A stretch of DNA of 64,000 bases from contig CBDESU010000001.1 of the NCBI GenBank assembly GCA_965242695.1, positions 1,536,001-1,600,000 on the forward strand, in the 5' to 3' direction. This DNA comes from Cenarchaeum sp. Lineage in GTDB: Archaea; Thermoproteota; Nitrososphaeria; Nitrososphaerales; Nitrosopumilaceae. The notes under the pieces were generated by a model. It ran no database searches, had not been told where the DNA came from, and saw nothing but the letters and a program-made list of their open reading frames with translations. The translations under genes were made by a program, and so were the position numbers. Below are positions 49,201 to 64,000 of the stretch, piece by piece (the first letter of the stretch is position 1; every line of letters starts with the position of its first letter).

Positions 49201-50004
49201 GTCGCCGCTGAACGCGGCGTCTATGGGTCGACTAAACTGCCCTTCTGCGCCACCTTTCGTATCTACTGGACCTACTTTGAACAACTCCTCGTGTCCCTTG
49301 CTTATGTTGAAGATTCCGATGAAATGACCGTTTTGAGCATTACCACTAGGCCCAGAGCTAACTATCGCCAAAAGCCCTCCGGGGCCAACATCCATGCCGT
49401 CGGGAGAATCGTACTGAGATGGCAGGGTCAGTGTGCCCGCATGCGTGCCGTTGGGGTGATAGTAGATCACATCCGTGGCACTGCCGTAGGCCACATAGGT
49501 GCGCCCTTCGGGAGTCACGGCAATCCCTTTCAGTTGATTGAACGTGACGCCCGGCGGCGCGGCAAGGTTGCTGTGGTGCGAGCCGTTGAGCAGGAATATC
49601 AGGATGCGCGGGGTCGGCTGCCGATCCAGTACGAATATGTGCGTCGAGTTTAGCGCAGCGCCGGTGGGGCGAGTAAGATCGCCGTCTCCGCCAGATGTGC
49701 CTATCGTGTAGTTGTAGTTGTAATCCCTGTCGAGCACCACCACCCTCTGATTGTTTCGATCTACCACATAGATGCGCCCTTCACGGTCAAATGCGACATC
49801 TTGGGGCGTACCGTATGTGGTGGAGCTGCCGAGGATCGTTGTGCTGGCTGGCAACAAGATCTTGCCGTTGGGATTGAACTCGGGGAGCGACTCATCCGTC
49901 TGGGCCGTCGCATCCCCCAGCAACATGGCCGGCGCAAGTGTAGCAGCCAGAGCAACGGCAACGGCACAGGCCGCCAAGCGGGCGGACGGACATAGTCCGT
50001 TCAT
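46297..50004 (-). CDS. Large secreted surface protein: NHL beta-propeller, 4 Ig-like repeats and C-terminal module
   Basis: Signal peptide; NHL repeats; ~120-aa repeats (PPRV..V.S...GTY.IG..I.I.VTF...DAAGNAA); Gly/Pro linker; C-terminal YTYHLTRFG...QSVTY.AQC. Confidence 0.85.
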   Translation of the reverse strand: MNGLCPSARLAACAVAVALAATLAPAMLLGDATAQTDESLPEFNPNGKILLPASTTILGSSTTYGTPQDVAFDREGRIYVVDRNNQRVVVLDRDYNYNYTIGTSGGDGDLTRPTGAALNSTHIFVLDRQPTPRILIFLLNGSHHSNLAAPPGVTFNQLKGIAVTPEGRTYVAYGSATDVIYYHPNGTHAGTLTLPSQYDSPDGMDVGPGGLLAIVSSGPSGNAQNGHFIGIFNISKGHEELFKVGPVDTKGGAEGQFSRPIDAAFSGDGRFLAVADSANERVQVFLLNTTDDGVPTGLASDRPVLIFGGFGTVVGVGFDSDNRLAAISTANRLVVYDEFVLPAVKSVTAAPDPATPGSAINANVLSAGRSVLVDVSFNTNLARVNTTAGIPYLALGPERNATLVPYDYSETTRTLQFTYTVQENDAEADFDHYPDTALMLNGSDIAAGPKNVTALTALPWTGPAGGSLLAVHGITFDMEPPVLEAIYSPNASDTYTNGSRIVVALNYSEPVWAVGPDGPSLALNVAAGDGGVASASYLSGNGTAMLSFSYEVRPGDSAPDGLRHNGTGALTAGSVVDAAGNAANRILPAPGDFAGPAIMLDTAPPRVLAVDSTLPAGTYGIGRTIDIAVTFDEDVTVTGIPMLALATTPPRSASYVQGTGSAAELTFRYMVQLGDSTSDGLRHAGTDALSVSPGSIADAASNAANLTLPPPSAFAGPGILVDAVPPRVLSVDSASSDGTYGIDQSINITVTFDKAVTVTGNPMLALATTPPRSASYVQGTGSAAELMFMYVVQQGDSAPGGLRHAGAGALGDAGSIVDAAGNAANRTLPDQGSPGPLAGILINTTRTDGGPVDPNGGGPVDPNGGGPGNQTDNAPTVAIGPGGVPAGQGDLADRGPGVNVTIDVSGLPGAGIAGGTVQFPQRGATVTTSFASVSFQPNTTATSVPADGMLVLRVVAAGDLPSNSSIQRSLAYDGSGAVVLQKVVEVGDEDVRIVFDKPVRISLEGQAKGRAFYIAGAGGQITPIDAACAADDTARVERHLNGTGECRIESDGDMVIYTYHLTRFGTVKPANDAMPPPVYHTCSVALEKPDLRIDDARLKGYSTPVSQRLFNTGSAEFERVGIEATRWQPNLGAGSSAGAGAPSLPSPVSMTGNGTASSALVARVDVSLPASLTEVREEIEGGAYAAVGGGTAVAAGLGGGDDRQLWFKLNLTQYSAVQGETITQSVTYNAQCTEP

Positions 50005-50183: not shown

Positions 50184-53100
50184 CTACGGCTCGGTGCACT
50201 GGGCGCTGTACGTAACGCTCTGGGTGATCGTCTCGGCCTGCACCGCATCGTAGGCGGTCAGGTTCAGCTTGAACCACAGGTCCTTGAAGGCTCCGCCGCC
50301 GAGCCCTGCGGCCACTGCCGTCCCCTCGCCGACGGACGCGTAGGCCCCGCCCCTGCCAGCCTCGCCCACCTCGGTCAGGCCGGCCGGCAGGGACGTGTCG
50401 ACCCTTGCGACAAGGGCGCTCGAGGCCGTACCGTTGCCCGTCATGGACACGGAGGAGGGCAGGGACGGCACTCCGGCATCCGGCGGGGCGTCGCCGCCAG
50501 AGCTGGCCTGCCATCGGGTCGCATCGATCTCGACGCGCTCAAACTGCGCCGATCCCGTGTTGAACAGTTTCTGCGAGACTGGCGTAGAGTGTCCCTCCAG
50601 CCTTGCGTCGTCGATCCTCAGGTCGGGCTTTTCAAGGGCCACCGAGCAGGTATAGTATGCGGGCGGCATCGCGTCGTTCGCGGACGAGACGGTGCCGAAC
50701 CTGGTCAGGTGGTACGTATAGATGACCATGTCGCCGTCCGAGTCGATCCGACACTCGCCCGTGCCGTTGAGGTGGCGGTGCACCCTCTCGCTGTCGTCTG
50801 CCCCGCAAGCATCGTCGATCGGCGTGATCGTGCCGCCGGCGCCCGCAATGTAGAACGCGCGCCCGCCGGCCTGGCCCTCTAGGGATATGCGGACGGGCTT
50901 GTCGAATACGATGCGCGTATTTTCGTCGCCGACCTCGACGACCCTCTGCAGTGCGACTGCACCCGAGCCGTCGTAGGCCAGGCTGCGCTGGATGCTAGAG
51001 TTTGACGGGAGGGCGCCTGCTTCGACCACGCGCAGGACCAGCATGCCGTCGGCCGGCACGGACGTTGCGGTCGTGTTTGGTGGGAAGGACACGGATGCAA
51101 ACGACGTCGACACTGTCGCGCCGCGCTGCGGGAACTGCACGGTTCCGCCGGCCGTCCCGGCGCCGGGCAGTCCGGACACGTCGATCGTGACGTTCACGCC
51201 GGGCCCCCTGTCGGCAAGGTCGCCCCGGCCGTCGGGCATCCAGTCCGGCCCGATGGCAACCGTGGGGGCGTTGCCGGTCTGGTTGCCGGGCCCGCCTCCG
51301 GTCTGGTTGCCCGATCCGCCGCCCATACTGGCAGTGTTGATCATGATGCCAGCAAGGGGAACTGGTGCCGGCAGTGTCAGGTCTGCCGTGTTGCCCACTG
51401 TATCCACGATCGAGCCGCCGCTGAGCGCGCCCGCACCCGCATGTCGCAGTCCGCCCGGTGCGCTGTCGTCCGCCTGCACCTCGTACCTGAATAGGATCTC
51501 AGCATCGCCGTCAGTGTCTGGCACGTATAGCGCACTTCTGGACGGGGTGGTGGCAAGGGCCAGCACGGGGCTTCCAGTTACGGTGACGGCCTCGTTAAAG
51601 GTGACGGCAATGTCGACAGACTGGCCGGCTCGGTACGTGCCGCTCAACGAATCGGACTCGACAGTGAGTACTCGGGGCCGTACGGCGTCCAGCCAGATGC
51701 CCTGTTCGGCGAGCGGGCCCGGGGGCGGCAGGGTCAGATTTGCCGCGTTGCCCACTGCATCCGCGATCGAGTCGCCGCTAGTGCTCAGCGCGCCCGTGCC
51801 GTCGTACCGCAGGCCTTCCGGCGCGCTGTCGCCCGGCTGCACCTCGTACCTGAACAGGAGCTTGTCATCAGCCTCCGTGTCCGGCACGTACGATGCGCTT
51901 TGGGGAGGCGTGGTGGCAAGGGCCAGCATCGGAGTGCCCGTTACGGTGACGTTCTCGTCAAAGGTGACGGCAATGTTGATCGTCTGGCCGATGCCGTACG
52001 TCCCGCGGGGCGAATCGGACTCGACCGAGACTACCCGGGGCGCCACGGCGTCTAGCCAGATACCCTGCCCGGCGAGCGGGCCTGGGGGCGGCAGCGTCCG
52101 GTTTGCCGCGTTGCCGGCCGCGTCCACGATTGTGCCGTCGGCGCCGAGCGCGCCCGTGCCGTCGTATTGCAGGCCGCCGAGCGCGCTGTCGCCCGCCCCC
52201 ACCTCGTACCTGAACAGGATCTCGGCATCGCCGTCAGTGTTCTCCACGTATGTTGCGCTTCTAGGCGGGTCGGTGGCAAGGGCCAGCGTGGGGCTTCCCA
52301 TGATGGTGACGGGCTCGCCAAAGGTGACGGCAATGTCGATCGTCCGGCCGATGCCGTACGTGCCGGCTGGCGTAGTAGAGTTGACCGCAAACACGCGGGG
52401 CGGAACGGTATCCAGCATGATGCCGGGTCTTGCAAAGTCGCCCGGGGCCAGCAGGTCCGGATCCGCCGCGTTGCCGGCCACATCCACGACAGAGCCGCCG
52501 GTGAGCGCGCCCGTGCCGTTGTGGCGCAGGCCCCCTGCTGGCGCGCTGTCGCCCGGCTGCACCTCGTATGAGAATTCGAGTGTAGTGGTGCCGTTGCCCG
52601 AGAGGTACGAGGCAGGGGCGGCAACGCCTCCGCCCTCTGAGATCACGTTCAGGGCTAGCGATGGGCTGTCGGATCCAACCGCCCAGACAGCCTCGGAATA
52701 GTTCAGGGCCACCACGATGCGCGAGCCGTTGGTGTACGTATCGCTGGCGTTGGGCGAGTAGATGGCCTCCAGCACAGGTGGTTCCATGTCGAATGTAATG
52801 CCGTGCGCCGCCAAGAGCGAGCCGCCTGCGGGGCCCGTCCACGGGAGGGCCGTCAGTGCAGTCACGTTCCTCGGCCCCGCCGTGATGGCAGAGCCGTTCA
52901 GCCTCAGCGCGGTATCCGGATAGTGCTCAAAGTCGGACTCCATGTCGTCATCCTGCACCGTGTACGTAAACTGCAGCGTCCTAGTCGTCTCGCTGTAGTT
53001 GTAAGGAACGAGCGTTGCGTTGCGCTCGGGGCCGAGCGCCAGGTACGGCACCCCCGCCGTCGTGTTGACCCTCGCCAAGTCCGTGTTGAACGTGACGTTC

Positions 53101-54224
53101 ACAAGGGCCGAGCTGCCGGCCGACAGTACGCTCGCGTTGATCGCGCTGCCGGCAGTGGCCGGATCCGGCGCGGCCACAACGCTCTTGACCGCCGGCAGGG
53201 CCACTTCGTGCACCTCTACGTGAAATATCCCCACCATGGCAAGGCGGTGGGCCGAGTCGAATCCAACCCCGGTGGTGCCAGTAATGGGGAATACGAATAC
53301 GGGCAGGGCGCTTGCAAGGCCGGTGGCGACTCCGTCGTCCGTCGTGTTCAGCCTGAACACCTGGACGCGGTTGTTCGCGGAGTCGGCCACCGCCAAGAGG
53401 CGGCCGTCGCTGCTGAACTTGACATCGCGGGGCCGGTCTAACTCCCCCTCGTCGCTGCTTCTCGTCCCCACTGTGCCTATTACAAACACCTCCCGGTGAT
53501 CGTCGCTCATGTTGAGGATGCGGACGGCATTACCAGCACCAGAGGTCCCGGCTTCAGCTAGCGCCAAGAGCCCTCCGCGCCCAACATCCATGCCGTCGGG
53601 TCCGCTGTTAGTCGATCTGGTCAGCGTGCCCTCAAGTGTTCCGTTGGGGTGATAGTATCGTACTATTACACCGTCATCAGCCACGTAGATGCGCCCCTCG
53701 GGGGTGATGGTTATGCCCTTCGGGTTATTCAGACCCGTTACAAAGGTGTGGGAAAACGAACCGTTGGGCAGAAATACCATGACGCGGTTGTTGGGACCGT
53801 CCAATGCAAATATGTGCTGGGTCGAATTCAACTCAACTCCGGTGGCACGATTAAACTGACCTGGTCCACTTCCCTGTACGCCTTCATAGGTGGTCGGGTT
53901 GATGTTTCCTATCCTGTCGACGAGATTGTACTCTCTGTCAAGCACCACCAGCCTGTAATTTCTCTGATCGGCCAGCAACATGCGATCCTCGCGGTCAAAG
54001 GTGACTTCGCGGAGGTATTGGTATTTGTCGAGGCTGCCGGACTTTGACAGCGTGCTGTTGCCGTCATCTTTGAACAGCAGGGTGCCGCTAGGAGCGAACT
54101 CGGGGAGCGACTCATCCGTCTGGGCCGCGGCCTCACCCAGCAGCATGGCCGGCGCCAAGGCGGCCGCCAGCGCAACGGCCGCGGCGCAGACCGCCAAGCG
54201 GGCGGACGTACAGCGCCCGCTCAT
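50184..54224 (-). CDS. Tandem paralogue of 46297..50004 with 5 Ig-like repeats
   Basis: Same architecture. Near-identical repeats 1-2 and C-terminus; divergent NHL head. Confidence 0.85.
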   Translation of the reverse strand: MSGRCTSARLAVCAAAVALAAALAPAMLLGEAAAQTDESLPEFAPSGTLLFKDDGNSTLSKSGSLDKYQYLREVTFDREDRMLLADQRNYRLVVLDREYNLVDRIGNINPTTYEGVQGSGPGQFNRATGVELNSTQHIFALDGPNNRVMVFLPNGSFSHTFVTGLNNPKGITITPEGRIYVADDGVIVRYYHPNGTLEGTLTRSTNSGPDGMDVGRGGLLALAEAGTSGAGNAVRILNMSDDHREVFVIGTVGTRSSDEGELDRPRDVKFSSDGRLLAVADSANNRVQVFRLNTTDDGVATGLASALPVFVFPITGTTGVGFDSAHRLAMVGIFHVEVHEVALPAVKSVVAAPDPATAGSAINASVLSAGSSALVNVTFNTDLARVNTTAGVPYLALGPERNATLVPYNYSETTRTLQFTYTVQDDDMESDFEHYPDTALRLNGSAITAGPRNVTALTALPWTGPAGGSLLAAHGITFDMEPPVLEAIYSPNASDTYTNGSRIVVALNYSEAVWAVGSDSPSLALNVISEGGGVAAPASYLSGNGTTTLEFSYEVQPGDSAPAGGLRHNGTGALTGGSVVDVAGNAADPDLLAPGDFARPGIMLDTVPPRVFAVNSTTPAGTYGIGRTIDIAVTFGEPVTIMGSPTLALATDPPRSATYVENTDGDAEILFRYEVGAGDSALGGLQYDGTGALGADGTIVDAAGNAANRTLPPPGPLAGQGIWLDAVAPRVVSVESDSPRGTYGIGQTINIAVTFDENVTVTGTPMLALATTPPQSASYVPDTEADDKLLFRYEVQPGDSAPEGLRYDGTGALSTSGDSIADAVGNAANLTLPPPGPLAEQGIWLDAVRPRVLTVESDSLSGTYRAGQSVDIAVTFNEAVTVTGSPVLALATTPSRSALYVPDTDGDAEILFRYEVQADDSAPGGLRHAGAGALSGGSIVDTVGNTADLTLPAPVPLAGIMINTASMGGGSGNQTGGGPGNQTGNAPTVAIGPDWMPDGRGDLADRGPGVNVTIDVSGLPGAGTAGGTVQFPQRGATVSTSFASVSFPPNTTATSVPADGMLVLRVVEAGALPSNSSIQRSLAYDGSGAVALQRVVEVGDENTRIVFDKPVRISLEGQAGGRAFYIAGAGGTITPIDDACGADDSERVHRHLNGTGECRIDSDGDMVIYTYHLTRFGTVSSANDAMPPAYYTCSVALEKPDLRIDDARLEGHSTPVSQKLFNTGSAQFERVEIDATRWQASSGGDAPPDAGVPSLPSSVSMTGNGTASSALVARVDTSLPAGLTEVGEAGRGGAYASVGEGTAVAAGLGGGAFKDLWFKLNLTAYDAVQAETITQSVTYSAQCTEP

Positions 54225-54345
54225 ACCGGCCAGCGGCGCCCCCCCCCCCACGAGCCTTCGCGGCGGCACGGGCAGCGCCCGCGGTCAAGCTACACGACAA
54301 CGGGCGTGCGCTCGGCGGGGGGTATTTAACAATGACGGGCGCAAC

Positions 54346-55564: not shown

Positions 55565-55956
55565 GCGCGGGCCCCGCCGGCGCCGGTAAATAGGCTTGCG
55601 GAATCCGCGGCAGGATGCCGCGTGCAAAAGGCGGCGGCCCTTGTCAGGGCAGGCGCCAGGCGCCCCTGGACAGCCCCGCAGGGCCCGGCATCATGCGCCC
55701 GTACGCCGGCGCCCTGCGCATGGGCGCGCCAGGGCCGCGCCGGAGCGCCCATTGCGGGGCCGCTCGAAGAGCCTGCCGGTGGGCGCGGGCGTTCGGCCTG
55801 GCGCCCCTGTAGTGCACACCCAACTGCCCCGGGATGCCGCGGACGGCGCCCGCCCGCCTTCCCCCTCCACAACCGCAAGCCCCCGGCTAGCGGTTCCGCC
55901 TAGGCGGCCCGCGGCGCCCTGTACCCGGCTGCCGCCGCGCATGCGCGCGCCAAGAT

Positions 55957-56442
55957 TCACGCATTGGGGCCGATCTTGAGCTTCTTTATTCTCCTGCCGT
56001 CCCGCCTCATCTGCCGCTCCCGATCTATGAGCCATGCGGCGTCTTGGAGGACGGCGTCGCTGGTAATCAGCTTTTGCGACATTGGATCCAGCAATGCTTG
56101 GGCTGCCACGAACGCGTCCGTATTCGTCATTCCCTTGACGTTCGTCATTATCTGACCCGCCAGCTCGGCCGTCTCGGGGTCTGGCGGCGGAAAGCAGGTG
56201 CCGGGATCCGCAACCCCCTCAGCCATCCGCAGCATCTTGCGTACGGGATCCTCCCACTCGCCGGGGCCGTAGTCCCTCATAGCGGTCGTGACCGCCTCGC
56301 CGATGACGATCTGAGGCACCTTTACGTCGTAGTCGCCGGACGCGAGGCGGGCGAAGATGCGAGCCGCCTTCTTCCGGTCGGCAGGCTTTTTCGCCATGAT
56401 CTCCCTCAGACCCCACGTGTCCACGTATGTGACAATGCCCAT
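55957..56442 (-). CDS. PIN-domain (VapC-like) ribonuclease, copy 1
   Basis: YVDTW...VPQIVIGEA...TDAFVAAQAL...LITSD: all four acidic PIN positions are present. Confidence 0.85.
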   Translation of the reverse strand: MGIVTYVDTWGLREIMAKKPADRKKAARIFARLASGDYDVKVPQIVIGEAVTTAMRDYGPGEWEDPVRKMLRMAEGVADPGTCFPPPDPETAELAGQIMTNVKGMTNTDAFVAAQALLDPMSQKLITSDAVLQDAAWLIDRERQMRRDGRRIKKLKIGPNA

Positions 56443-56560
56443 GCCGGCCCCCCCCCCAAACTTGGGTTATTTAACTTATAGGTGTTTTATATAGGTATTT
56501 GGCCATGTCGATTGCCCGCAGTCCAAAGTCTTATAAGGCCTCCGTTGCGCGCGCCCGGCC
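56443..56560. promoter_or_regulatory. AT-rich divergent promoter between PIN and the array (second copy 61582..61695)
   Basis: TTATTTAACTTATA, TTTATATA and CTTATAA boxes are conserved in both modules. Confidence 0.65.
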
Positions 56561-57142
56561 ATGCTAGAAGCGTTCATGCGGTTCCTCATAGACAATGGCC
56601 TGCTCGGCCGCGAGGCCCCGGTCGGCGACGAACAATGGCTTGACGAGCTGACAGTGGTGAGCTCGTGCACGGCCATAGCAGGCAGGCTCGGTCTGGAACA
56701 TGGATACATGTTCAAGGGGCTCTGGTACGGCCCCAGGTCGGAAAGGCTGGAAGACGAGTTCGAGGAGGCGGGGCCGCGTGCGCGCGCCGGGCTCGGCGGG
56801 GCCGCGCCGCCCCTGCCGGCCGGCTTTGACGCGGAGCGGTTCCTGCGGCTGGCAGCCGGCAGGAACCTCAGGTGGCTAGAGGCCGCATCCAACCTGATCC
56901 TGTCGAGCCATTCGCGGCCCAATGCGGAAGAGCTGGCCGAGCTGGTCGGCGGGAACTCGGACGTGTGGCCCATCGAGTACTGCCTCGGCATAGTAGAGGA
57001 GATGACCTCGCCCGACATCGGCATCGTGCTAGACTACGACAAGTACTCGTACGACCGCCCGTGGCAGCCAGAGGTGGCATCGGCGACGCACCGCCCAAGG
57101 ATTGCAGCGGCCCCCCTGGCCACCCCCGCCGCTGCCGGGTAG
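56561..57142 (+). CDS. SocA/Panacea(DUF4065)/YwgA-like protein, array copy 1
   Basis: GLEHGYMF....YGPRSERL.D and WLEAASNL resemble the GY.F....GP.S..L and WLE.AA motifs. The usual QK..Y motif is absent. Confidence 0.6.
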   Translation: MLEAFMRFLIDNGLLGREAPVGDEQWLDELTVVSSCTAIAGRLGLEHGYMFKGLWYGPRSERLEDEFEEAGPRARAGLGGAAPPLPAGFDAERFLRLAAGRNLRWLEAASNLILSSHSRPNAEELAELVGGNSDVWPIEYCLGIVEEMTSPDIGIVLDYDKYSYDRPWQPEVASATHRPRIAAAPLATPAAAG

Positions 57143-57215
57143 CGGGGCATTCCGGCAGGGTTCTGTCGAGGCGCCACCGCGCAAATCGATATAGGCCCCC
57201 GCTGCGCGCCCGGCC

Positions 57216-57782
57216 ATGTTGCTGGTCGCGTTCATGCGGTTCCTCATAGACAACGGCCTGCTCGGCCGAGAGGCCCCGGTCGGCGACGATCCATGGCTTG
57301 ACGAGCTGACAGTTGTGGGATCCTGCATGGCCATAGCAGGCAGGCTCGGGCTGGAGCACGGGTACATCTTCGATAGTCTCGTGAACGGCGGCCGATCGGA
57401 GAAGATGTGGGACGAGTTTGACGAGGGGGCGGGGCCGCGGGCGCGCGCCGGGCTCGGCGGGGCCGCGCCGCCCCTGCCGGCCGGCTTTGACGCGGAGCGG
57501 TTCCTGCGGCTGGCAGCAGGCAGGGATCTCGAGTGGCTAAAGGCCGCATCCACCCTGATCCTGTCGAGCCATTCGCGGCCCAACGCGGAAGAGCTGGCCG
57601 AGCTGGTCGGCGGGAACTCGGACGTGTGGCCCGTCAAGTACTGCCTCGATATAGTCGGGGAGATGACCGCCCCCGACATCGGCATCGTGCTAGACTACGA
57701 CAAGTACTCGTACCACCGCCCGTGGCAGCCAGAGGTGGCGTCGGCGACGCACCGGCCTCAGTGGTTGAAAATGTGCCCGTAA
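57216..57782 (+). CDS. Array copy 2; last codons displaced by the IS (native tail at 59969..60018)
   Basis: Paralogue of copy 1. ...THRP is followed by the IS TIR, and RIAAAPLAAPAAAG* resumes after the IS. Confidence 0.75.
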   Translation: MLLVAFMRFLIDNGLLGREAPVGDDPWLDELTVVGSCMAIAGRLGLEHGYIFDSLVNGGRSEKMWDEFDEGAGPRARAGLGGAAPPLPAGFDAERFLRLAAGRDLEWLKAASTLILSSHSRPNAEELAELVGGNSDVWPVKYCLDIVGEMTAPDIGIVLDYDKYSYHRPWQPEVASATHRPQWLKMCP

Positions 57783-59968
57783 CTTGACCTACCGCCGTCG
57801 TCTGTCCGCCTCGGGGCGGTATATACCATGGCCGCCTTCGCAGGCATGGCTAGGGACGGCGGCCGGCGGCGGCCGCCACCTGGCGCGGATCGCGGGGCGC
57901 CCGCCCGCGACAGGCCAGCGCACTCTGCCGCGCGGCCGGCGGCCGCGGCCGCGGCCGGCGGCGCGGCGGAAGGGAGCAGGGCCGACCGGCCGGGAACGGG
58001 CAGGATGCGGCGGCAGCGCAGTGCACGGCCAGATGTTGTGCATGGAGTGGAGATCCTGTACGCGGCGCGGCCGCGGCCGCGGCCGCGGCTCCCGGCCGCC
58101 GTGGCCGCCGTGGCGGCTGCGCACGGAGCCCGCCGTCCGCCGTCCGTTGCACAGCGGGACGGGGGGCAGCCTCGGCGGCCGTCGAAAATTCCCCGAGTAT
58201 GAGGGCGAATTTGCGGGGCATGCAGGGCGCCCGGGCCAAAACGCATGCGAAACTCGGCCTGCGAGTTGGGGCCGTGGGAGGGATGAAGCGGCCATCGCGG
58301 CAAAAGCTCGGCGGCTGGCATGCTTGTGCATGAATCGATTTTTTGTCTTGCACTGGTTCGACTTCAGCGAATTGGGCATTGTTAGGAATGAATGTTCTAT
58401 ATATATTTTGCAAGAAAAGATATGCGACGGCGATCCTCGGAACCGGCGTGCGCGGCATGGCGCAAATCGATTCCGTAAAACGGCACAGTAATATTACCAC
58501 CCTGGCGGGCGGGCGCCGTGGACGCGTTTCTGGGGAGAATTGAGGAGCTCGAAGCCGACGTCTCGAGCGTGTTTATGTTTTTCGTGGCAATGATGGCGGC
58601 GTTTGGGTTTCCCCTGTCCGCCCGGTACAATTCGCTGCACGGGCCCATTTCGCTGTGCGCCATCATCGCATCGATGGCATTCACAAAGTCGTGCACCGAG
58701 ACCGCGTCCAAGCTTTTCGCGCTCCGCGTCAAAGACCTGGCGTGGGGCGTCGTCGACGTCAGGTCGCTGCACCTGCCCACATCGCAGTGGGCGCTCAAGA
58801 TGATCGCCGGCCTCGACCACGGCGCGATGGAGGCGGCGTGCAGGGCGGCATTTCGCGCCTGTACAGCCCTGGCCAGGGCGCGCGGGATGATCCCCGCGCG
58901 ACCCCTAGGCATGATAGACGGGCAGAGCTCGGCGTACTACGGGGAAAAGGGCGACATGAAGTACATCACAAGGGGCAAGAGCAAGAACGGCACGACAAAG
59001 TTTCACACGTTCCTGTGCTCCATCATCAGGGCGGGGCAATACCCGCTGCACACGGCAATGTGCCGCATGTGCCCCGGGGTTCCGCTGGAGGAGTACCTCC
59101 GGGACGTGCTCGCGCAGAACCGCGAGGCCGGGATCAGGTGCTCCCACTGGCTCGTCGACAGGCTGTTCTTCAGCGTGGCCGCGATGTACGAGTTCGGCAG
59201 GGTCGACGAGTACTTTCTGATGTACGCGCGCATGACGCCGGGGATCAAGAAGGCGCTCGACGAGTACCTGAGCGGGAAGCGGGCCGCCATGTCCGAGTAC
59301 GTCGTCAGGTCGGGCCGCCGAAAGTTCACAGGAACCCTGGCGTTCGTGGAAAAGACGAGGACGAATAAGAACGGCGAGAGGGAGACGGTCATCCTCCCGA
59401 TCTTTTCGAACCTTCCGCGGGCCCAGCTTGCCGCCGCGATCCGCGACCTGCCGATCGAGATCAAGAAGAGGTGGATACACGAGTCGTCGTTCAGGGTCGC
59501 CACGTTCTCAAAGCCGATGACGACCAGCAACAGCCCCTCGCTCAGGACTTTCTTCTTCGGGATGTCCCTATTCCTCGGCAACATGTCGGTGATAGCGAAC
59601 CACGCAATAGAGGCCCGAAGCCACGCAGAGGGCGGGGAGGTGCCCGTCCCCGAGCCGCCTGCCGACGATCGCCTCGGGGACAAGCGCTGCCTGGCGACCA
59701 AGACAAAGTACAGCATGACATCCAAGGAGTTCCTGAGCCTCCTGGTCTCGGAGGCGGGCAGGCTGCACACCCGGGACAAGAGGGCTCAGGACGACTACAC
59801 CGCCTGGGCGATGGCCAAGAACGCGCACCTGATCCCGCCGCCCGTCCAAGAGCGCCCAATCCTGACGGGGGAGTACGCTTCCGGCATCCCGCGCTGGGCA
59901 TGACGGCGGGCTGGCATACCTTCATAACGGGAAGGTGACAGACCCTGCCGGCACATTTTCAACCACTG
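57759..59968 (+). mobile_element. ISH3-family insertion sequence, 2210 bp
   Basis: Perfect 19-bp TIRs CAGTGGTTGAAAATGTGCC (57759-57777 and 59950-59968). 5-bp TSD GGCCT. Confidence 0.92.
58518..59903 (+). CDS. ISH3-type DDE transposase
   Basis: IDG...YYG...GTT, LVDRLFFS, KKRWIHESSFR and TTSNSPSLRTFFF motifs. Confidence 0.85.
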   Translation: MDAFLGRIEELEADVSSVFMFFVAMMAAFGFPLSARYNSLHGPISLCAIIASMAFTKSCTETASKLFALRVKDLAWGVVDVRSLHLPTSQWALKMIAGLDHGAMEAACRAAFRACTALARARGMIPARPLGMIDGQSSAYYGEKGDMKYITRGKSKNGTTKFHTFLCSIIRAGQYPLHTAMCRMCPGVPLEEYLRDVLAQNREAGIRCSHWLVDRLFFSVAAMYEFGRVDEYFLMYARMTPGIKKALDEYLSGKRAAMSEYVVRSGRRKFTGTLAFVEKTRTNKNGERETVILPIFSNLPRAQLAAAIRDLPIEIKKRWIHESSFRVATFSKPMTTSNSPSLRTFFFGMSLFLGNMSVIANHAIEARSHAEGGEVPVPEPPADDRLGDKRCLATKTKYSMTSKEFLSLLVSEAGRLHTRDKRAQDDYTAWAMAKNAHLIPPPVQERPILTGEYASGIPRWA

Positions 59969-60199
59969 GGCCTAGGATCGCCGCGGCCCCGCTGGCCGCC
60001 CCCGCCGCGGCAGGGTAGCGGGGCATGCAGGCAGAGTCACGTCGAGGCGCCGCCGCGGGTTGTATGCCGTCTGCGGCCGATATGCGCTAGGCGGTCTTCC
60101 CCCCCCCCCCCGCCGTCGGCTGGCGCCTGGTCACGCATGGCGCGTCCGAGGGCAGGCAGGGATCAGCAGGTAGGCGCGCAGGCGCCTTGCAGAGGAAAG

Positions 60200-60870
60200 G
60201 GGGCTTGTCGGGTCGAAAACCATGCGCGGAACGAGCCACTTTGAGGTGTACGTCGTGCCGCATTGTGTCAAGGGGGTGCAGATCGTGGTAGCCCGCCTGC
60301 GCGTCGACGACCTGTCAAACCTTGCAAGGCTCATCCCGTCCTGGCCGACAAGATCAGGGCGCGGGGGATACGCCGTGCTAGGCTGCTCCTTGACAGGGAG
60401 TTCAACGAGGACGGCACGGAGGAGCTGCAAGGACAAGGTTCCGCGGGATCACCTCCTGCCGCAACGCCGAGGCCGTCAAGAAGGCCCACGCCAAGTTTGC
60501 CTAGACCGGAAAGAGGACGCGCGTCGTGCGCATGGCCATCACGGGCAAGGACTGTAGGCAGGTCGAGTACTGGACGTGCATCGAGTCGCGCAAGAAGTGC
60601 GAGAAGGACGGCGAGGACGGCGGCAGAGGCTCGAGGAAGACAGTAGGCCCGAGCCGCACGGGAGGTTCGTCGGGTTCGCGGTCAGCCGGCGATCGGCAAG
60701 GCCCCGCCACTACAAGAAGAGGCGGAGGATCGAGACGCGGTTCAAGATGGTGTAAGACTGGCGGGACAAGACGTCGAGCGCCCTGCCGAACGCCGGCCTT
60801 CTCTGCTTCATCTACTCATGTTCGCCAGCAACGTGTGGGTCGTGATCAATTCCATGTTCTGGTGGCGCCC
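60200..60870 (+). pseudogene. Frameshifted remnant of a second ISH3-type transposase
   Basis: Fragments in different frames: SKTMRGTSHF, ARGIRRARLLLDREF, YKKRRRIETRFK, KTSS...LLCFIYS. Confidence 0.7.
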
Positions 60871-61095
60871 GTCGGACTGCGTTCCGCGGATATCGCCAGC
60901 GGCCGCGCTCTCCATGGGCGTCAGAATGTGGGAAATTTGCGAGCCCAAACCGCCGCCGTGAGGCCCGGAGTTGGGTCGGTTGTCCACCGGCCCGCCTTCC
61001 CGCTGCCGCCGCGCGCGCCCACGGCTGCCGGTTTAGCCCAGGCGGCCCGTGGCGCCCTGGGCCCGGCCGCCGCCTCGCATGCGCCGCGCCTGGAT

Positions 61096-61581
61096 TCACG
61101 CATCGGGGCCGATCTTGAGCCTCTTTATTCTCTTGCCGTCCCGCCTCATCTGCCGCTCCCGTTCTGTGAGCCATGCGGCGTTCTGGAGGACTGAGTCGTT
61201 GGTGATCAACTTTTGCGACATCGGATCCAGCAATGTCTGGGCTGCCACGAACGCGTCCGTCCTTGTCATTCCCTCGACGTTTGCCATTATCTCAGCCGCC
61301 AGCTCGGCCGCCTCGGGGTCCGGCGGCGGAAAGCAGGTGCCGGGATCCGCTACCCTCTCGACCTCCCGCAGCATCTTGCGTACTGGCTCCTCCCACTCGC
61401 CGGGTCCATAGTCCCTCATCGCGGTCGTGACCGCCTCGCCGATGACGATCTGAGGCACCTTTACGTCGTAGTCGCCAGACTCGAGCCGGGCGAATATGTG
61501 GGCTACCCTCTTTCGGTCGGTGGGCTTTTTCGCCAAGAACTCTCTCAGCCCCCATGTATCCACGTATGTGACAATGCCCAT
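61096..61581 (-). CDS. PIN-domain (VapC-like) ribonuclease, copy 2
   Basis: 161-aa close paralogue of 55957..56442 with the same acidic residues. Confidence 0.85.
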   Translation of the reverse strand: MGIVTYVDTWGLREFLAKKPTDRKRVAHIFARLESGDYDVKVPQIVIGEAVTTAMRDYGPGEWEEPVRKMLREVERVADPGTCFPPPDPEAAELAAEIMANVEGMTRTDAFVAAQTLLDPMSQKLITNDSVLQNAAWLTERERQMRRDGKRIKRLKIGPDA

Positions 61582-61695
61582 GTCGCCCCCTCAAATTTGG
61601 GTTATTTAACTTATAGGGGCTTTATATACGGCATATGGTCACGTCGATCGCCCGCGGACCAAAGTCTTATAAAGCCCCCGTTGCGCGCCCCGGCC

Positions 61696-62277
61696 ATGCT
61701 GGAGGCGTTCATGCGGTTCCTCATAGACAACGGCCTGCTCGGCCGCGAGGCCCCGGTCGGCGACGATCCATGGCTTGACGAGCTGACAGTGGTGAGCTCC
61801 TGCATGGCCATAGCAGGCAGGCTCGGGCTGGAGCACGGGTACGTGTTCACCAGTCTCTGGCATGGTGCCCAATCGGAGAGGATGTGGGACGAGTTTGACG
61901 AGGGGGCGGGGCCGCGGGCGCGCGCCGGGCTCGGAGGGGCCGCGCCGCCCCTCCCTGCCGGCTTTGACGCGGAGCGGTTCCTGCGGCTGACGGCCGGCAA
62001 GGACCTCGAGTGGCTAAAGGCCGCATCCAACCTGATCTTGTCGAGCCATGCGCGGCCCAACGCGGAAGAGCTGGCCGAGCTGGTCGGCGGGAACTCGGAC
62101 GTGTGGCCCGTCAAGTACTGCCTCGACATAGTCGAGAAGATGACCTCGCCCGACATTGGCATCGTCCTAGACTACGACAAGTACTCGTACGACGACCCGT
62201 GGCAGCCAGAGGTGGCGTCGGCGACGCACCGGCCCAGGATCGCCGCGGCTCCCCTGGCCCCGGCCGCGGCAGGGTAG
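61696..62277 (+). CDS. SocA/Panacea/YwgA-like protein, array copy 3
   Basis: MLEAFMRFLIDNGLLG start at 61696; variable segment VFTSLWHGAQSERMWD. Confidence 0.75.
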   Translation: MLEAFMRFLIDNGLLGREAPVGDDPWLDELTVVSSCMAIAGRLGLEHGYVFTSLWHGAQSERMWDEFDEGAGPRARAGLGGAAPPLPAGFDAERFLRLTAGKDLEWLKAASNLILSSHARPNAEELAELVGGNSDVWPVKYCLDIVEKMTSPDIGIVLDYDKYSYDDPWQPEVASATHRPRIAAAPLAPAAAG

Positions 62278-62353
62278 CAGGACATGCCGACAGAGTCCCG
62301 CCGAGGCCCCGCCGCGCAAACCGATATAGCCCACCCCGCCGCGCGGCCCGACC

Positions 62354-62935
62354 ATGCTGGAGGCGTTCATGCGGTTCCTCATAGACAACGGCCTGCTCGG
62401 CCGCGAGGCCCCGGTCGGCGACGAGCAGTGGCTTGACGAGCTGACAGTTGTGGGATCCTGCATGGCCATAGCAGGCAGGCTCGGGCTGGAGCACGGGTAC
62501 GTGTTCAAGAGGCTCTGGTACGGCCCCCAGTCGGAAAGGCTGGACGACGAGTTCGAGGAGGGGGCGGGGCCGCGGGCGCGCGCCGGGCTCGGAGGGGCCG
62601 CGCCGCCCCTGCCGGCCGGCTTTGACGCGGAGCGGTTCCTGCGCCTGGCAGGCGGCAGGGATCTCGGGTGGCTAAAGGCCGCAGCCTACCTGATCCTGTC
62701 GAGCCATGCGAGGCCAAACGCAGAGGAGCTGGCCGAGCTGGTCGGCGAGAACTCGGGCGAGTGGCCCACCAAGTACTGCCTCGGCATAGTAGAGGAGATG
62801 ACCTCGCCCGACATCGGCATCGTGCTAGACTACGACAAGTACTCGTACGACGACCCGTGGCAGCCAGAGGTGGCGTCGGCGACGCACCGGCCTAGGATCG
62901 CCGCGGCCCTCTCCATCCCCGCCGCTGCCGGATAG
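62354..62935 (+). CDS. SocA/Panacea/YwgA-like protein, array copy 4
   Basis: Variable segment VFKRLWYGPQSERLDD. Confidence 0.75.
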   Translation: MLEAFMRFLIDNGLLGREAPVGDEQWLDELTVVGSCMAIAGRLGLEHGYVFKRLWYGPQSERLDDEFEEGAGPRARAGLGGAAPPLPAGFDAERFLRLAGGRDLGWLKAAAYLILSSHARPNAEELAELVGENSGEWPTKYCLGIVEEMTSPDIGIVLDYDKYSYDDPWQPEVASATHRPRIAAALSIPAAAG

Positions 62936-63011
62936 CGGGGCATGCCGGGCGGAGTCACGTCGAGGCCCGCCGCGCAAACCGATATAGCCCACCCCGCTGT
63001 GCGGCCCGACC

Positions 63012-63600
63012 ATGCTGGAGGCGTTCATGCGATTCCTCATAGACAATGGCCTGCTCGGCCGCGAGGCCCCGGTCGGCGACGAGCAGTGGCTTGACGAGCT
63101 GACAGTGGTGAGCTCGTGCACGGCCATAGCAGGCAGGCTCGGGCTGGAGCACGGGTACATGTTCAAGGGGATCTGGTACGGTCCCCGGTCGGAAAGGCTA
63201 GAAGACGAGTTCGAGGATGGGGCGGGGCCGCGGGCGCGCGCCGGGCTCGGAGGGGCCGCGCCGCCCCTGCCGGCCGGCTTTGACGCGGAGCGGTTCCTGC
63301 GGCTGGCAGGCGGCAGGGATCTCGAGTGGCTAAAGGCCGCATCCTACCTGATCCTGTCGAGCCATGCGCGGCCCAACGCGGAAGAGCTGGCCGAGCTGGT
63401 CGGCGGGAACTCGGACGTGTGGCCCGTCAAGTACTGCCTCGACATAGTCGAGAAGATGACCTCGCCCGACATCGGCATCGTACTCGACTACACAAGTACT
63501 CGTACGACGACCCGTGGCAGCCAGAAGTGGCGTCGGCGACGCACCGGCCCAGGATCGCAGCGGTTCCCCTGGCCGCCCCGGCCGCGGCCGGGCAGCGTGG
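63012..63600 (+). CDS. SocA/Panacea/YwgA-like protein, array copy 5; 1-nt deletion near 63491 frameshifts the C-terminus
   Basis: TACACAAG here versus TACGACAAG in the other copies. Variable segment MFKGIWYGPRSERLED. Confidence 0.7.
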
Positions 63601-64000
63601 CATTCTGGCAGATCACCGTAGAGGCGCCGCCGCGGGCCGCGTGCAGTCTGCGGCAGATATGCGCTAGACGGTCTTCCCGCCCCTCCCGCCCCCCCCCCCC
63701 CCCCCGCCGTCGGCTGGCGCCCGGGGCGCCTCTTCCTGACCGGGCGCGACGACGATCCCGCCCCTGCGCATACGGAAGGTTGTCCTGGACGTCCTGGCAC
63801 AGCATGCCGATGAGCGGCATCGGCATTGTGCTTTGATAGATGCGGTTCCCGCACATGTTCACGCTGACGGCCATTCTGTCGTGCCGCCTTCCACCTTGGC
63901 ATGCTAGGGGCCGGGCAGCGGCGGGGACGGGCACGGTGGCCCGGCGCCTGCCAGGGCCGCGCGCATGTTCGCGGAGGGGCGGAACGCGCGGACGGCGCAG

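What the first reader, a model, noticed from the sequence alone, without database searches (positions are those of the whole stretch)
55850..63720. PIN nuclease facing a tandem array of Panacea/SocA-like variants with one hypervariable segment (duplicated module)
Seen: the module [PIN gene on minus | AT-rich divergent promoter | tandem ~656-bp gene units on plus | poly-C end] occurs twice, with 2 and 3 units. The five ~193-aa proteins are nearly identical except for a ~16-aa patch: MFKGLWYGPRSERLED, IFDSLVNGGRSEKMWD, VFTSLWHGAQSERMWD, VFKRLWYGPQSERLDD and MFKGIWYGPRSERLED. Known: the GY.F...GP.S..L and WLE motifs recall DUF4065 SocA/Panacea (YwgA-like) antitoxins, which are normally single-copy and co-directional with their toxin. 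Inference: this is an expandable library of antitoxin, sensor or immunity variants whose specificity is set by the variable patch. It could guard one PIN effector (multi-trigger abortive defence) or neutralise several foreign toxins.
Basis: partly seen in the sequence, partly recalled or inferred. Interest (0 to 1): 0.85.

Follow-up and report, generated by a model that had tools for sequence, protein, structure and literature searches.

The report
PIN nuclease with amplified Panacea-like partner genes
An ammonia-oxidising archaeon carries two copies of a probable toxin-antitoxin-type module: a PIN nuclease gene facing two or three tandem copies of a partner gene whose predicted fold matches a known antitoxin domain.

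Summary
Two PIN genes (55957-56442 and 61096-61581, minus strand) each face a tandem array of 2 and 3 genes of about 190 aa, with a period of 658-661 bp. Variation clusters at codons 50-65: 11 of 16 columns vary, against 26 of 143 elsewhere.

The unit matches no Pfam, NCBIfam, PADLOC or PHROGs model, including SocA_Panacea. Its AF2 model has one outlying structural match, PDB 7yk3_D (DarTG complex, Z 10.2). A genuine PF13274 protein of the same genome has the same sole top match (Z 7.3).

PIN-unit adjacency holds for 30 of 32 PIN-family matches in 6 genomes. It occurs in divergent, convergent and one co-directional arrangement, so the pair is linked but is not an operon.

All 16 genes checked have a TATA-like box about 27 nt before the ATG. 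The copies are mosaics, which points to gene conversion. The patch has both higher pS and higher pN, with a ratio of 0.61. Its variants recur in other samples. In two sister arrays the variable region is codons 105-136 instead.

Best reading: a divergent Panacea-like antitoxin or sensor family paired with a PIN toxin and amplified in a few archaeal genomes. The "specificity library" idea is untested. This is a new variant of a known kind.

The parts
55957..56442 (-). PIN1, a 161-aa PIN-domain nuclease gene (putative toxin or effector)
   Evidence: Pfam PF01850 scores 22.8 bits against a cut-off of 23.6. 16 of 24 family members match PF01850 at E<=0.01, best 6.8e-9. D8, E49, D109 and D129 are invariant in 24 sequences.
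56443..56560 (.). 118-bp divergent intergenic region with TATA-like boxes facing both genes
   Evidence: It is 93% identical to its module-B counterpart. G+C dips to about 0.60. CTTATAAG lies about 27 nt before the unit ATG, and TATAAGTTAAATAA lies about 26-30 nt before the PIN ATG.
56561..57142 (+). Unit A1, 193 aa, Panacea-like fold; patch at 56708-56755
57143..57215 (+). Inter-unit spacer with its own BRE/TATA-like box (GCAAATCGATATAGG)
   Evidence: A 232-nt contig covering 57026-57257 bridges this junction with 0 differences in runs X1 and X5 and 1 difference in X6.
57216..57782 (+). Unit A2, 188 aa; its tail diverges after codon ~180, at the right edge of array A; patch at 57366-57413
58518..59903 (+). 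ISH3-like transposase gene between the two modules
   Evidence: NCBIfam NF033541 scores 69.3 bits, E 2.9e-19, below the equivalog cut-off of 225.
61096..61581 (-). PIN2, 161 aa
   Evidence: Pfam PF01850 scores 21.5 bits. It is 84% identical to PIN1.
61582..61695 (.). Divergent intergenic region of module B
61696..62277 (+). Unit B1, 193 aa; patch at 61843-61890
62354..62935 (+). Unit B2, 193 aa; patch at 62501-62548. This unit was the query for the model and the searches.
63012..63600 (+). Unit B3. The domain (codons 1-160) is intact. A 1-nt deletion lies between 63491 and 63492, and the ancestral stop is changed to CAG. As it stands, the ORF runs on to 63836. Patch at 63159-63206.
63691..63707 (+). 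Poly-C run after array B
   Evidence: The last bin has depth in the thousands, which indicates low-complexity sequence.

Best explanation
The locus holds two copies of a toxin-antitoxin-type module from an ammonia-oxidising archaeon.

Each module has one PIN-domain ribonuclease gene, the putative toxin or effector. Next to it, on the other strand, sits a gene for a stand-alone, highly diverged Panacea-like (PanA / DarG-C-terminal-domain-like) protein. That protein probably binds the PIN protein and keeps it inactive.

The partner gene has been amplified in tandem to 2 and 3 copies. Each copy keeps its own archaeal BRE/TATA promoter and is probably expressed as a leaderless mRNA. This would explain why the pair does not need to be an operon.

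The copies exchange sequence by gene conversion. That keeps most of the gene 90-96% identical, while the hairpin around the GP motif (codons 50-65) stays diverged.

Shown here: the anatomy, the fold likeness, the conserved adjacency, the conserved PIN acidic residues, the mosaicism and purifying selection.

Inferred: toxicity of the PIN, neutralisation by direct binding, promoter function, and any role of the variable patch in partner or trigger specificity.
For: Fold:
- The AF2 model has pLDDT 88.2 and pTM 0.84, with seven helices plus a beta-hairpin.
- A VIA-align search of 48,161 chains gave one outlier, 7yk3_D (DarTG complex), at Z 10.2, rmsd 3.2 and 144 aligned residues. The next hit was Z 3.7.
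- A genuine PF13274 protein of the same genome (65.2 bits; model pLDDT 89.8) has the same sole top hit: Z 7.3, rmsd 5.0, 133 aligned, next 4.8. Its order of secondary-structure elements is the same.
- PMC13621843 (passages) states that DUF4065 proteins are homologous to the DarG C-terminal antitoxin domain in 7YK3.
- PMC10440598 (passages) describes Panacea as alpha1-alpha7 plus beta1 and beta2.

Linkage:
- 30 of 32 PIN-family matches in 6 of 41 related genomes lie within 250 bp of a unit-family match. I compared the coordinates by hand.
- The arrangements are divergent (gaps 100-155 bp), convergent (7-131 bp for intact PIN matches) and one co-directional case.
- All 6 genomes with the PIN family also have the unit family.

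PIN: D8, E49, D109 and D129 are invariant in 24 sequences. 16 of 24 match Pfam PIN.

Selection: pN/pS is 0.41 over codons 1-160 of the five units.

Promoters: 16 of 16 near-tier genes of this genome (11 units, 5 PINs) have a TATA-like box about 22-30 nt before the ATG.

Complex prediction (ESMFold2, weak support): the median score was 0.49 (runs 0.58, 0.49, 0.41) and the best of 3 controls was 0.00. In the tool's calibration the mark was reached by 58 of 80 solved complexes and 2 of 110 mismatched pairs. Scores of 0.60 or under were given by only 7 of those 80 solved complexes and by both passing mismatches. The three runs agree in at least 85% of contacts, and the partner pLDDT is at least 89.

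Precedent: the Kurata et al. dataset lists a PanT cluster whose HHpred hits are PIN/VapC proteins.
Against: - No sequence-level membership. The PF13274 HMM hits none of the units. hhalign of the unit family against a PF13274 alignment gives probability 0.66% and E 0.087, although the stretch it aligns is the shared QK..IA...YGP motif. Foldseek against PDB found nothing at E<=0.001.
- The tool gives only the entry title for 7yk3, so the identity of chain D as the DarG C-terminal domain is inferred from the paper and from the control.
- The pair is not co-directional in this window, unlike classical type II systems.
- Units outnumber PINs, and some genomes (G015, G038) have units without this PIN.
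- The complex score lies in the zone the tool calls weak.
- No RNA data and no experiment bear on this locus.
- PIN domains also serve housekeeping RNA processing.
Confidence: 0.55

Rival explanations
1. Defence-sensor array. The PIN is an abortive-infection effector. The Panacea-like units are both inhibitors and sensors, and their diversified surfaces (codons 50-65 and 105-140) each recognise a different viral trigger. The tandem copies would then widen the range of triggers that release one nuclease. This is the first reader's 'multi-trigger' idea and a refinement of the best explanation.
For: - Ernits et al. (PMC10440598, passages) favour the view that Panacea is a sensor of unknown cues.
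- Family-wide, the two most variable 16-residue windows are 50-65 and 125-140, with mean entropy 1.73 against 1.04 elsewhere, over 77 sequences.
- In that paper, the substitutions that break neutralisation in a stand-alone PanA are Y56A (next to beta2) and H120E (end of alpha5). These are roughly the same structural places; the correspondence rests on element names and was not tested.
- In cluster C, pN is at least pS around codons 29-60 and 125-137.
- Runs labelled sponge metagenome hold the locus.
Against: - Patch pN/pS is 0.61, with pS raised as well, so there is no signature of positive selection.
- The patch variants recur with 1-6 differences in contigs of other samples, so there is no ongoing diversification.
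- There is no PADLOC hit.
- The neighbours are housekeeping genes, not a defence island.
- No virus or trigger is known.
Confidence: 0.2
2. This is not a toxin-antitoxin pair. The unit would be a DNA- or RNA-binding regulator or adaptor, since its C-terminal half resembles winged-helix domains. It would act with, or regulate, a PIN RNase that serves ordinary RNA metabolism. The arrays would simply be dosage amplifications.
For: - Residues 86-160 of the model give weak matches (Z 2.7-3.7) to winged-helix regulators such as PerR, CodY, MarR and TFIIB.
- The divergent promoter layout is typical of a regulator and its target.
- A motif (GTCGA[TG].GCC) is conserved upstream of the TATA-like box in all five units.
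Against: - Those matches are far below the 7yk3_D match and within the tool's noise range.
- The linkage survives in convergent arrangements with gaps of 7-131 bp, where no promoter is shared.
- The sporadic distribution (15 of 301 genomes of the phylum at E<=1e-8) and the multi-copy bursts fit accessory or selfish modules rather than housekeeping.
- Ernits et al. argue that Panacea is probably not the autoregulator.
Confidence: 0.12
3. Selfish or neutral amplification. The arrays would be recent products of unequal crossing-over and IS activity with no added function, and the patch would only be a tolerant surface loop that gene conversion fails to homogenise.
For: - An ISH3-like transposase lies between the modules.
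- The last copy of each array is aberrant: A2 has a truncated tail and B3 is frameshifted.
- Partial PIN remnants sit in the G004 array.
- The 37 informative sites support at least 9 different groupings of the five units, which shows mosaicism.
- A contig joint in run X7 (62964 back to 57197) suggests another unit order in another strain, or a chimera.
Against: - Four of five units are intact, and the domain of the fifth is intact.
- pN/pS is 0.32 outside the patch.
- The patch holds the family's most conserved residues (Y49, G57, P58, S60) interleaved with the variable ones, so it is not a free loop.
- Every copy keeps a promoter-like box.
Confidence: 0.1

Closest known systems
PanA antitoxins with a stand-alone Panacea domain (Pfam PF13274 SocA_Panacea / DUF4065; Kurata et al. 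2022, PMC8832971; Ernits et al. 2023, PMC10440598)
   Same: - A compact domain of about 150 aa with seven helices and a small beta-hairpin that carries a conserved G-P motif next to the central helix.
- The same best PDB match as a genuine member.
- Sits next to a toxin-like gene.
- Has different partners in different genomes.
   Different: - No HMM or profile-profile match.
- GP.S replaces GPV.
- A conserved RARAGLG..APPLP loop and a disordered tail of about 35 aa.
- The partner lies on the opposite strand. The FlaGs pipeline of Kurata et al. rejects such pairs: Nitrosopumilaceae DUF4065 homologs are flagged 'Strand Difference' and no_PanT in its dataset.
- Tandem arrays, with 33 family matches in one genome. 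Most taxa in that paper have one homolog and only 5 taxa have more than five.
DarG C-terminal domain of the DarTG system (PDB 7YK3)
   Same: It is the best and only outlying structural match (Z 10.2, 144 residues, rmsd 3.2). According to the passages read, this domain binds and inhibits its toxin directly.
   Different: - 13% sequence identity.
- No macrodomain.
- The partner is a PIN nuclease, not a DarT ADP-ribosyltransferase.
VapBC (PIN toxin with a small DNA-binding antitoxin), including the large paralogous VapBC sets of some bacteria and archaea
   Same: - A PIN domain with the four conserved acidic residues.
- Many paralogous modules in one genome.
   Different: - There is no VapB-type antitoxin (RHH, AbrB, Phd; this list is recalled, not from a call).
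- The partner is a globular protein of 190 aa.
- The genes are not co-transcribed.
- The antitoxin-like gene alone is amplified in tandem.

Membership tests
Pfam PF13274 SocA_Panacea (DUF4065) | Match to the family HMM at or above the gathering score (25.7 bits) | tested here: not met
   No Pfam hit at E<=1 for any of the five units, nor for 18 homologs at E<=0.1. A six-frame search of the whole genome with PF13274 found one true member (C2:567619, 65.2 bits) and none of the units.
Pfam PF13274 SocA_Panacea (DUF4065) | Profile-profile similarity to genuine members | tested here: not met
   hhalign of A3 (48 sequences) against A4 (31 PF13274 proteins) gave probability 0.66% and E 0.087. The 38 aligned columns are the QK..IA...YGP motif.
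Panacea fold (as described in PMC8832971 and PMC10440598) | A compact fold with a central helix, further helices (alpha1-alpha7) and a small sheet | tested here: met
   The model has H2-11, H23-41, a hairpin at 53-59, then H61-77, H92-99, H104-119, H123-134 and H139-149. The control PF13274 model has the same order of elements. Both have 7yk3_D as their sole top hit, at Z 10.2 and 7.3.
Panacea fold (as described in PMC8832971 and PMC10440598) | Conserved G-P-V motif in the strand next to the central helix | tested here: inconclusive
   G57 and P58 are at least 90% conserved and Y49 is invariant across 48 sequences, and S60 is nearly invariant, giving GP.S. V is not conserved. In units A2 and B1, P58 is replaced by G and A.
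Type II toxin-antitoxin module | Two adjacent genes, conserved as a pair | tested here: met
   30 of 32 PIN-family matches in 6 genomes lie within 250 bp of a unit-family match.
Type II toxin-antitoxin module | Co-directional bicistronic operon | tested here: not met
   The close copies (>=45% identical to the window's genes) are divergent. The more distant copies (~30% identical) are convergent. One co-directional case exists (G039 C68), where the unit match contains a stop.
Type II toxin-antitoxin module | The toxin arrests growth and the antitoxin neutralises it by binding | not testable with these tools
   Only a complex prediction was possible, and it gave weak support: 0.49 against a best control of 0.00.
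PIN domain / VapC-like nucleases (PF01850) | HMM match | tested here: inconclusive
   PIN1 scores 22.8 bits and PIN2 21.5 bits against a cut-off of 23.6. 16 of 24 family members match at E<=0.01, best 6.8e-9. Three homologs carry a precomputed PF01850 label.
PIN domain / VapC-like nucleases (PF01850) | Conserved acidic active-site residues | tested here: met
   D8, E49, D109 and D129 are invariant in 24 sequences. That these four are the catalytic set is recalled knowledge of PIN domains, not a tool result.

The most novel reading that the evidence does not exclude
An archaeal immune module that is not an operon. One PIN effector would be held by any of several tandemly encoded Panacea-like sensor-inhibitors. 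Their two diversified surfaces (codons 50-65 and 105-140) would each recognise a different invader protein. Gene conversion would shuffle these surfaces among copies and loci, giving a germline-encoded recognition repertoire for a single nuclease.
Probability: 0.15. Interest if true: 0.8.

Novelty: new variant of a known kind. Interest (0 to 1): 0.55.

Why it matters
Panacea is the most promiscuous antitoxin domain known, and its real role (neutraliser or sensor) is still open. This locus bears on that in four ways.

1. It reveals a clade that the Pfam model does not detect and that only structure recovers.
2. It shows pairing with a toxin-like gene on the opposite strand. The published neighbourhood pipelines discard such pairs by design, so archaeal modules of this kind are systematically missed.
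3. It shows bursts to dozens of copies in a few ammonia-oxidising archaea, with 33 matches in this genome, whereas one copy is the rule.
4. It provides natural arrays of near-identical paralogs that differ mainly at the structural places where published mutations break PanA neutralisation. That is a ready-made set of variants for testing what determines Panacea specificity.

Tried and rejected
Searches that found nothing:
- Foldseek against PDB: no match at E<=0.001.
- A second look at Foldseek's own list: nothing above Z 3.7.
- ESM Atlas: no usable hit.
- NCBIfam, PADLOC and PHROGs: nothing for the unit or the PIN.
- Sequence searches of PDB with the unit profile, the PF13274 control and the PIN profile: nothing meaningful.
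- The search for related loci: no relative in genome contigs with the single protein and none in metagenome contigs with alignment A7. Alignment A3 was too diverse to be used.
- Earlier findings of this scan: none by place, sequence or words.

Sequencing runs:
- No RNA holder is listed.
- The runs laid were short contigs only. None spans an array, so copy number and mis-assembly could not be settled. Only the unit-to-unit junctions are bridged.

Ideas considered:
- A diversity-generating retroelement as the source of patch variation. I set this aside because the patch alleles recur nearly unchanged in other samples. I did not search for a reverse transcriptase.
- A defence-island context. It is not seen: the flanks are DNA polymerase B, a helicase, NHL-repeat giant proteins and carbamoyl-phosphate synthase.

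Limits:
- Formal codon site models were not run, because DNA is available for only 16 close copies and they recombine.
- The main texts of the two Panacea papers were read only as passages and one section. One supplementary dataset of PMC8832971 was searched by terms. The supplements of PMC10440598 were not opened and may list PanA-PIN pairs.


Full report
**What is there**

The window is G000:C1:1536001-1600000 of a 3.89-Mb, two-contig genome. The genome has an archaeal 16S/23S operon and an archaeal amoA gene at 393.7 bits. It is therefore an ammonia-oxidising archaeon.

At 55.9-63.8 kb there are two copies of one module.
- Module A: a PIN gene on the minus strand (55957-56442), a 118-bp intergenic region, and two plus-strand units (56561-57142 and 57216-57782).
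- Module B: the second PIN gene (61096-61581) with three units (61696-62277, 62354-62935 and 63012 onward).

The unit period is 658-661 bp. The PINs are 84% identical, and the units are 83-89% identical to the first. An ISH3-like transposase gene (58518-59903; 69 bits, below the equivalog cut-off) lies between the modules. The wider flanks are housekeeping genes.

**The variable patch**

Variation clusters at codons 50-65:
- 11 of 16 patch columns vary, against 26 of 143 elsewhere.
- The scan-statistic permutation gives p = 0.004.
- 6 of the 9 columns with three or more states lie in the patch.

Variation is not confined to the patch, however. Smaller clusters lie at about 100-113 and 131-147.

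By Nei-Gojobori counts over the ten pairs:

| Region | pN | pS | Ratio |
|---|---|---|---|
| Patch (codons 50-65) | 0.244 | 0.399 | 0.61 |
| Rest of codons 1-159 | 0.046 | 0.141 | 0.32 |

Both kinds of change are raised in the patch. So the patch is older or more diverged than its flanks, rather than visibly under positive selection.

The 37 informative sites support at least nine different groupings of the five copies. Nucleotide divergence is 8-39% in the patch against 4-11% in the flanks. This is the pattern of repeated gene conversion that spares the patch, or is selected against there.

Unit B3 has a 1-nt deletion after codon 160 and has lost the ancestral stop codon. The tail of A2 diverges at the array edge.

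**Is the patch a general feature?**

It is not. In the same-genus genome G004, an array of five units has an almost invariant patch, and the variable region is codons 105-135. In a second cluster of this genome (C1:1013511-1030004, six units about 55% identical to the window's), pN peaks at 113-136. There the patch has pN of about 0.10, roughly equal to pS.

Across 77 distinct close homologs, the two most variable 16-residue windows are 50-65 and 125-140. Their mean entropy is 1.73, against 1.04 elsewhere.

**What the unit is**

No Pfam, NCBIfam, PADLOC or PHROGs model matches it. A six-frame search of the genome with PF13274 (SocA_Panacea) finds one true member elsewhere and none of the units. 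Profile-profile comparison with 31 PF13274 proteins is not significant (probability 0.66%). Even so, the stretch it aligns is the shared QK..IA...YGP motif.

The AF2 model is confident (pLDDT 88.2) and has seven helices plus a hairpin. Foldseek finds nothing. An exhaustive VIA-align search finds a single outlier, 7yk3_D of the DarTG complex, at Z 10.2, rmsd 3.2 and 144 residues. The next hit is Z 3.7.

As a control, I modelled the genuine PF13274 protein of this genome (pLDDT 89.8). It has the same order of secondary-structure elements and the same sole top hit (Z 7.3, next 4.8).

A 2026 paper states that DUF4065 proteins are homologous to the C-terminal toxin-inhibiting domain of DarG in 7YK3 (PMC13621843, passages). 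That chain D is this domain is my inference from the paper and the control. On this evidence the unit has the Panacea / DarG-CTD fold but is not a Pfam member by sequence.

**Linkage with PIN**

In this genome my family HMMs find 13 PIN-family genes. Twelve have a unit-family gene within 131 bp, and the thirteenth has one 1.76 kb away.

I sort the copies by similarity to the window's genes:
- Near-tier copies (PINs and units at least 45% identical to the window's) are divergent, with gaps of 110-119 bp.
- Mid-tier copies (about 30% identical) are convergent, with gaps of 26-131 bp. They include five tandem PIN/unit pairs at C1:635-644 kb.

Among 41 related genomes, 6 have the PIN family and 14 have the unit family. 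All 6 with the PIN family also have the unit family. Comparing the coordinates by hand, 30 of 32 PIN matches lie within 250 bp of a unit match. One case is co-directional (G039). The G004 array alternates PIN(-)/unit(+), with two partial PINs.

Units without this PIN occur elsewhere. G015 has 18 matches. In one 10-kb stretch, three of eight units are followed co-directionally by homologous proteins of about 200 aa with hydrophobic N-termini. Changing partners in this way is typical of Panacea.

Phylum-wide, 15 of 301 genomes have a match at E<=1e-8, mostly as a single copy.

**The PIN**

Each PIN falls just under the Pfam cut-off (22.8 and 21.5 bits against 23.6). But 16 of 24 family members match PF01850, and D8, E49, D109 and D129 are invariant.

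**Expression signals**

All 16 near-tier genes of this genome (11 units, 5 PINs) have an A-rich stretch plus a TATA-like box ending about 22-27 nt before the ATG. This fits archaeal promoters that drive leaderless mRNAs. That interpretation rests on general knowledge, and no RNA run was available. Each tandem unit therefore looks like its own transcription unit, which would explain why strand and order are free to vary.

**Binding**

A complex prediction for PIN2 with unit B2 gave weak support. The median score was 0.49, and the best of three controls was 0.00. The calibration counts are given in the For line.

**Independent DNA support**

Eleven runs from five studies hold part of the stretch, and five of them are labelled sponge metagenome. 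Only short contigs could be laid, and none spans an array. Contigs do bridge the junctions:
- A1-A2: 57026-57257, with 0 differences in X1 and X5 and 1 in X6.
- B1-B2: 62177-62392, with 0 differences in X5.
- B2-B3: bridged in X6 and X7, with 7 and 13 differences.

Contigs covering the patches of A1, B1 and B2 differ by 1-6 letters. X1 may be the source sample, so it is not independent support. Tandem junctions and patch alleles therefore exist outside this assembly. Copy number remains unverified.

**Comparison with what is known**

Kurata et al. (PMC8832971) report the following:
- Panacea has a central helix, further helices and a small sheet with a conserved GPV motif, and this motif is needed for neutralisation.
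- Two substitutions flanking the GPV strand relax specificity.
- Most taxa have one homolog, and only five have more than five.

Their dataset lists an untested PanT cluster with PIN/VapC HHpred hits. It flags Nitrosopumilaceae DUF4065 homologs as having no toxin, under a note that includes 'Strand Difference'.

Ernits et al. (PMC10440598) show that a stand-alone Panacea neutralises its toxin directly. Y56A (next to beta2) and H120E (end of alpha5) break neutralisation. The authors favour a sensor role for the domain. The two variable regions found here fall at about those structural places. This correspondence is an inference from element names, not a superposition.

**Verdict**

The module is best read as a PIN toxin with a diverged Panacea-like partner, not organised as an operon and amplified in tandem. 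The 'specificity library' reading is possible but untested, and three results count against its simplest form: the pN/pS ratio, the stability of the patch alleles across samples, and the different variable region in sister arrays. This is a new variant of a known kind.

Noticed in passing
window 58518-59903 (+), with flanks 57860-58110: An ISH3-like transposase gene (NCBIfam NF033541, 69 bits, below the cut-off) lies between the two modules. GC-rich (GGCCGC)n simple repeats lie before it. Many contigs of other runs end at 57955-57968 and 58064-58097, as expected at the edges of a repeated element.
   Followed up: partly
window 46297-50004 (-) and 50184-54269 (-): Two giant proteins of 1235 and 1361 aa carry NHL repeats and many NxS/T sequons. 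They lie directly upstream of the modules and may be surface proteins.
   Followed up: no
L053 (G015:C1:16000-26000): Eight unit-like genes lie in tandem within 10 kb of a genome from another genus, with no PIN. Three are followed co-directionally by homologous proteins of about 200-240 aa (34-38% identical) with hydrophobic N-terminal segments. These may be a membrane-toxin partner.
   Followed up: partly
G000 C1:1190215-1191012, C1:1299199-1299966, C1:364301-364621, C2:1342659-1342943: About ten more distant unit-like proteins of this genome match only HMM positions 25-153 and have no PIN nearby. Four of them (those listed) carry an extra domain of about 95 aa, either fused at the C-terminus or encoded as an overlapping downstream ORF. 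This is a different architecture of the same superfamily.
   Followed up: partly
G000 C1:635418-644062: Five convergent PIN/unit pairs are repeated in tandem with a period of about 1.5 kb. This is a second style of amplification, of the whole pair rather than of the unit alone.
   Followed up: partly
window 63659-63900: This bin has summed contig depth in the thousands in three of the four runs laid (31 in the fourth). It contains a C run (63691-63707) and GC-rich low-complexity sequence shared with many other organisms.
   Followed up: no
window residues 72-90 of each unit (e.g. 62567-62623 in B2): The loop RARAGLGG.APPLPAGF is the most conserved part of the close family (column entropy mostly below 0.5). 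It has no secondary structure in the model, yet its pLDDT is high. It may be a functional element, for example one that contacts the PIN.
   Followed up: no
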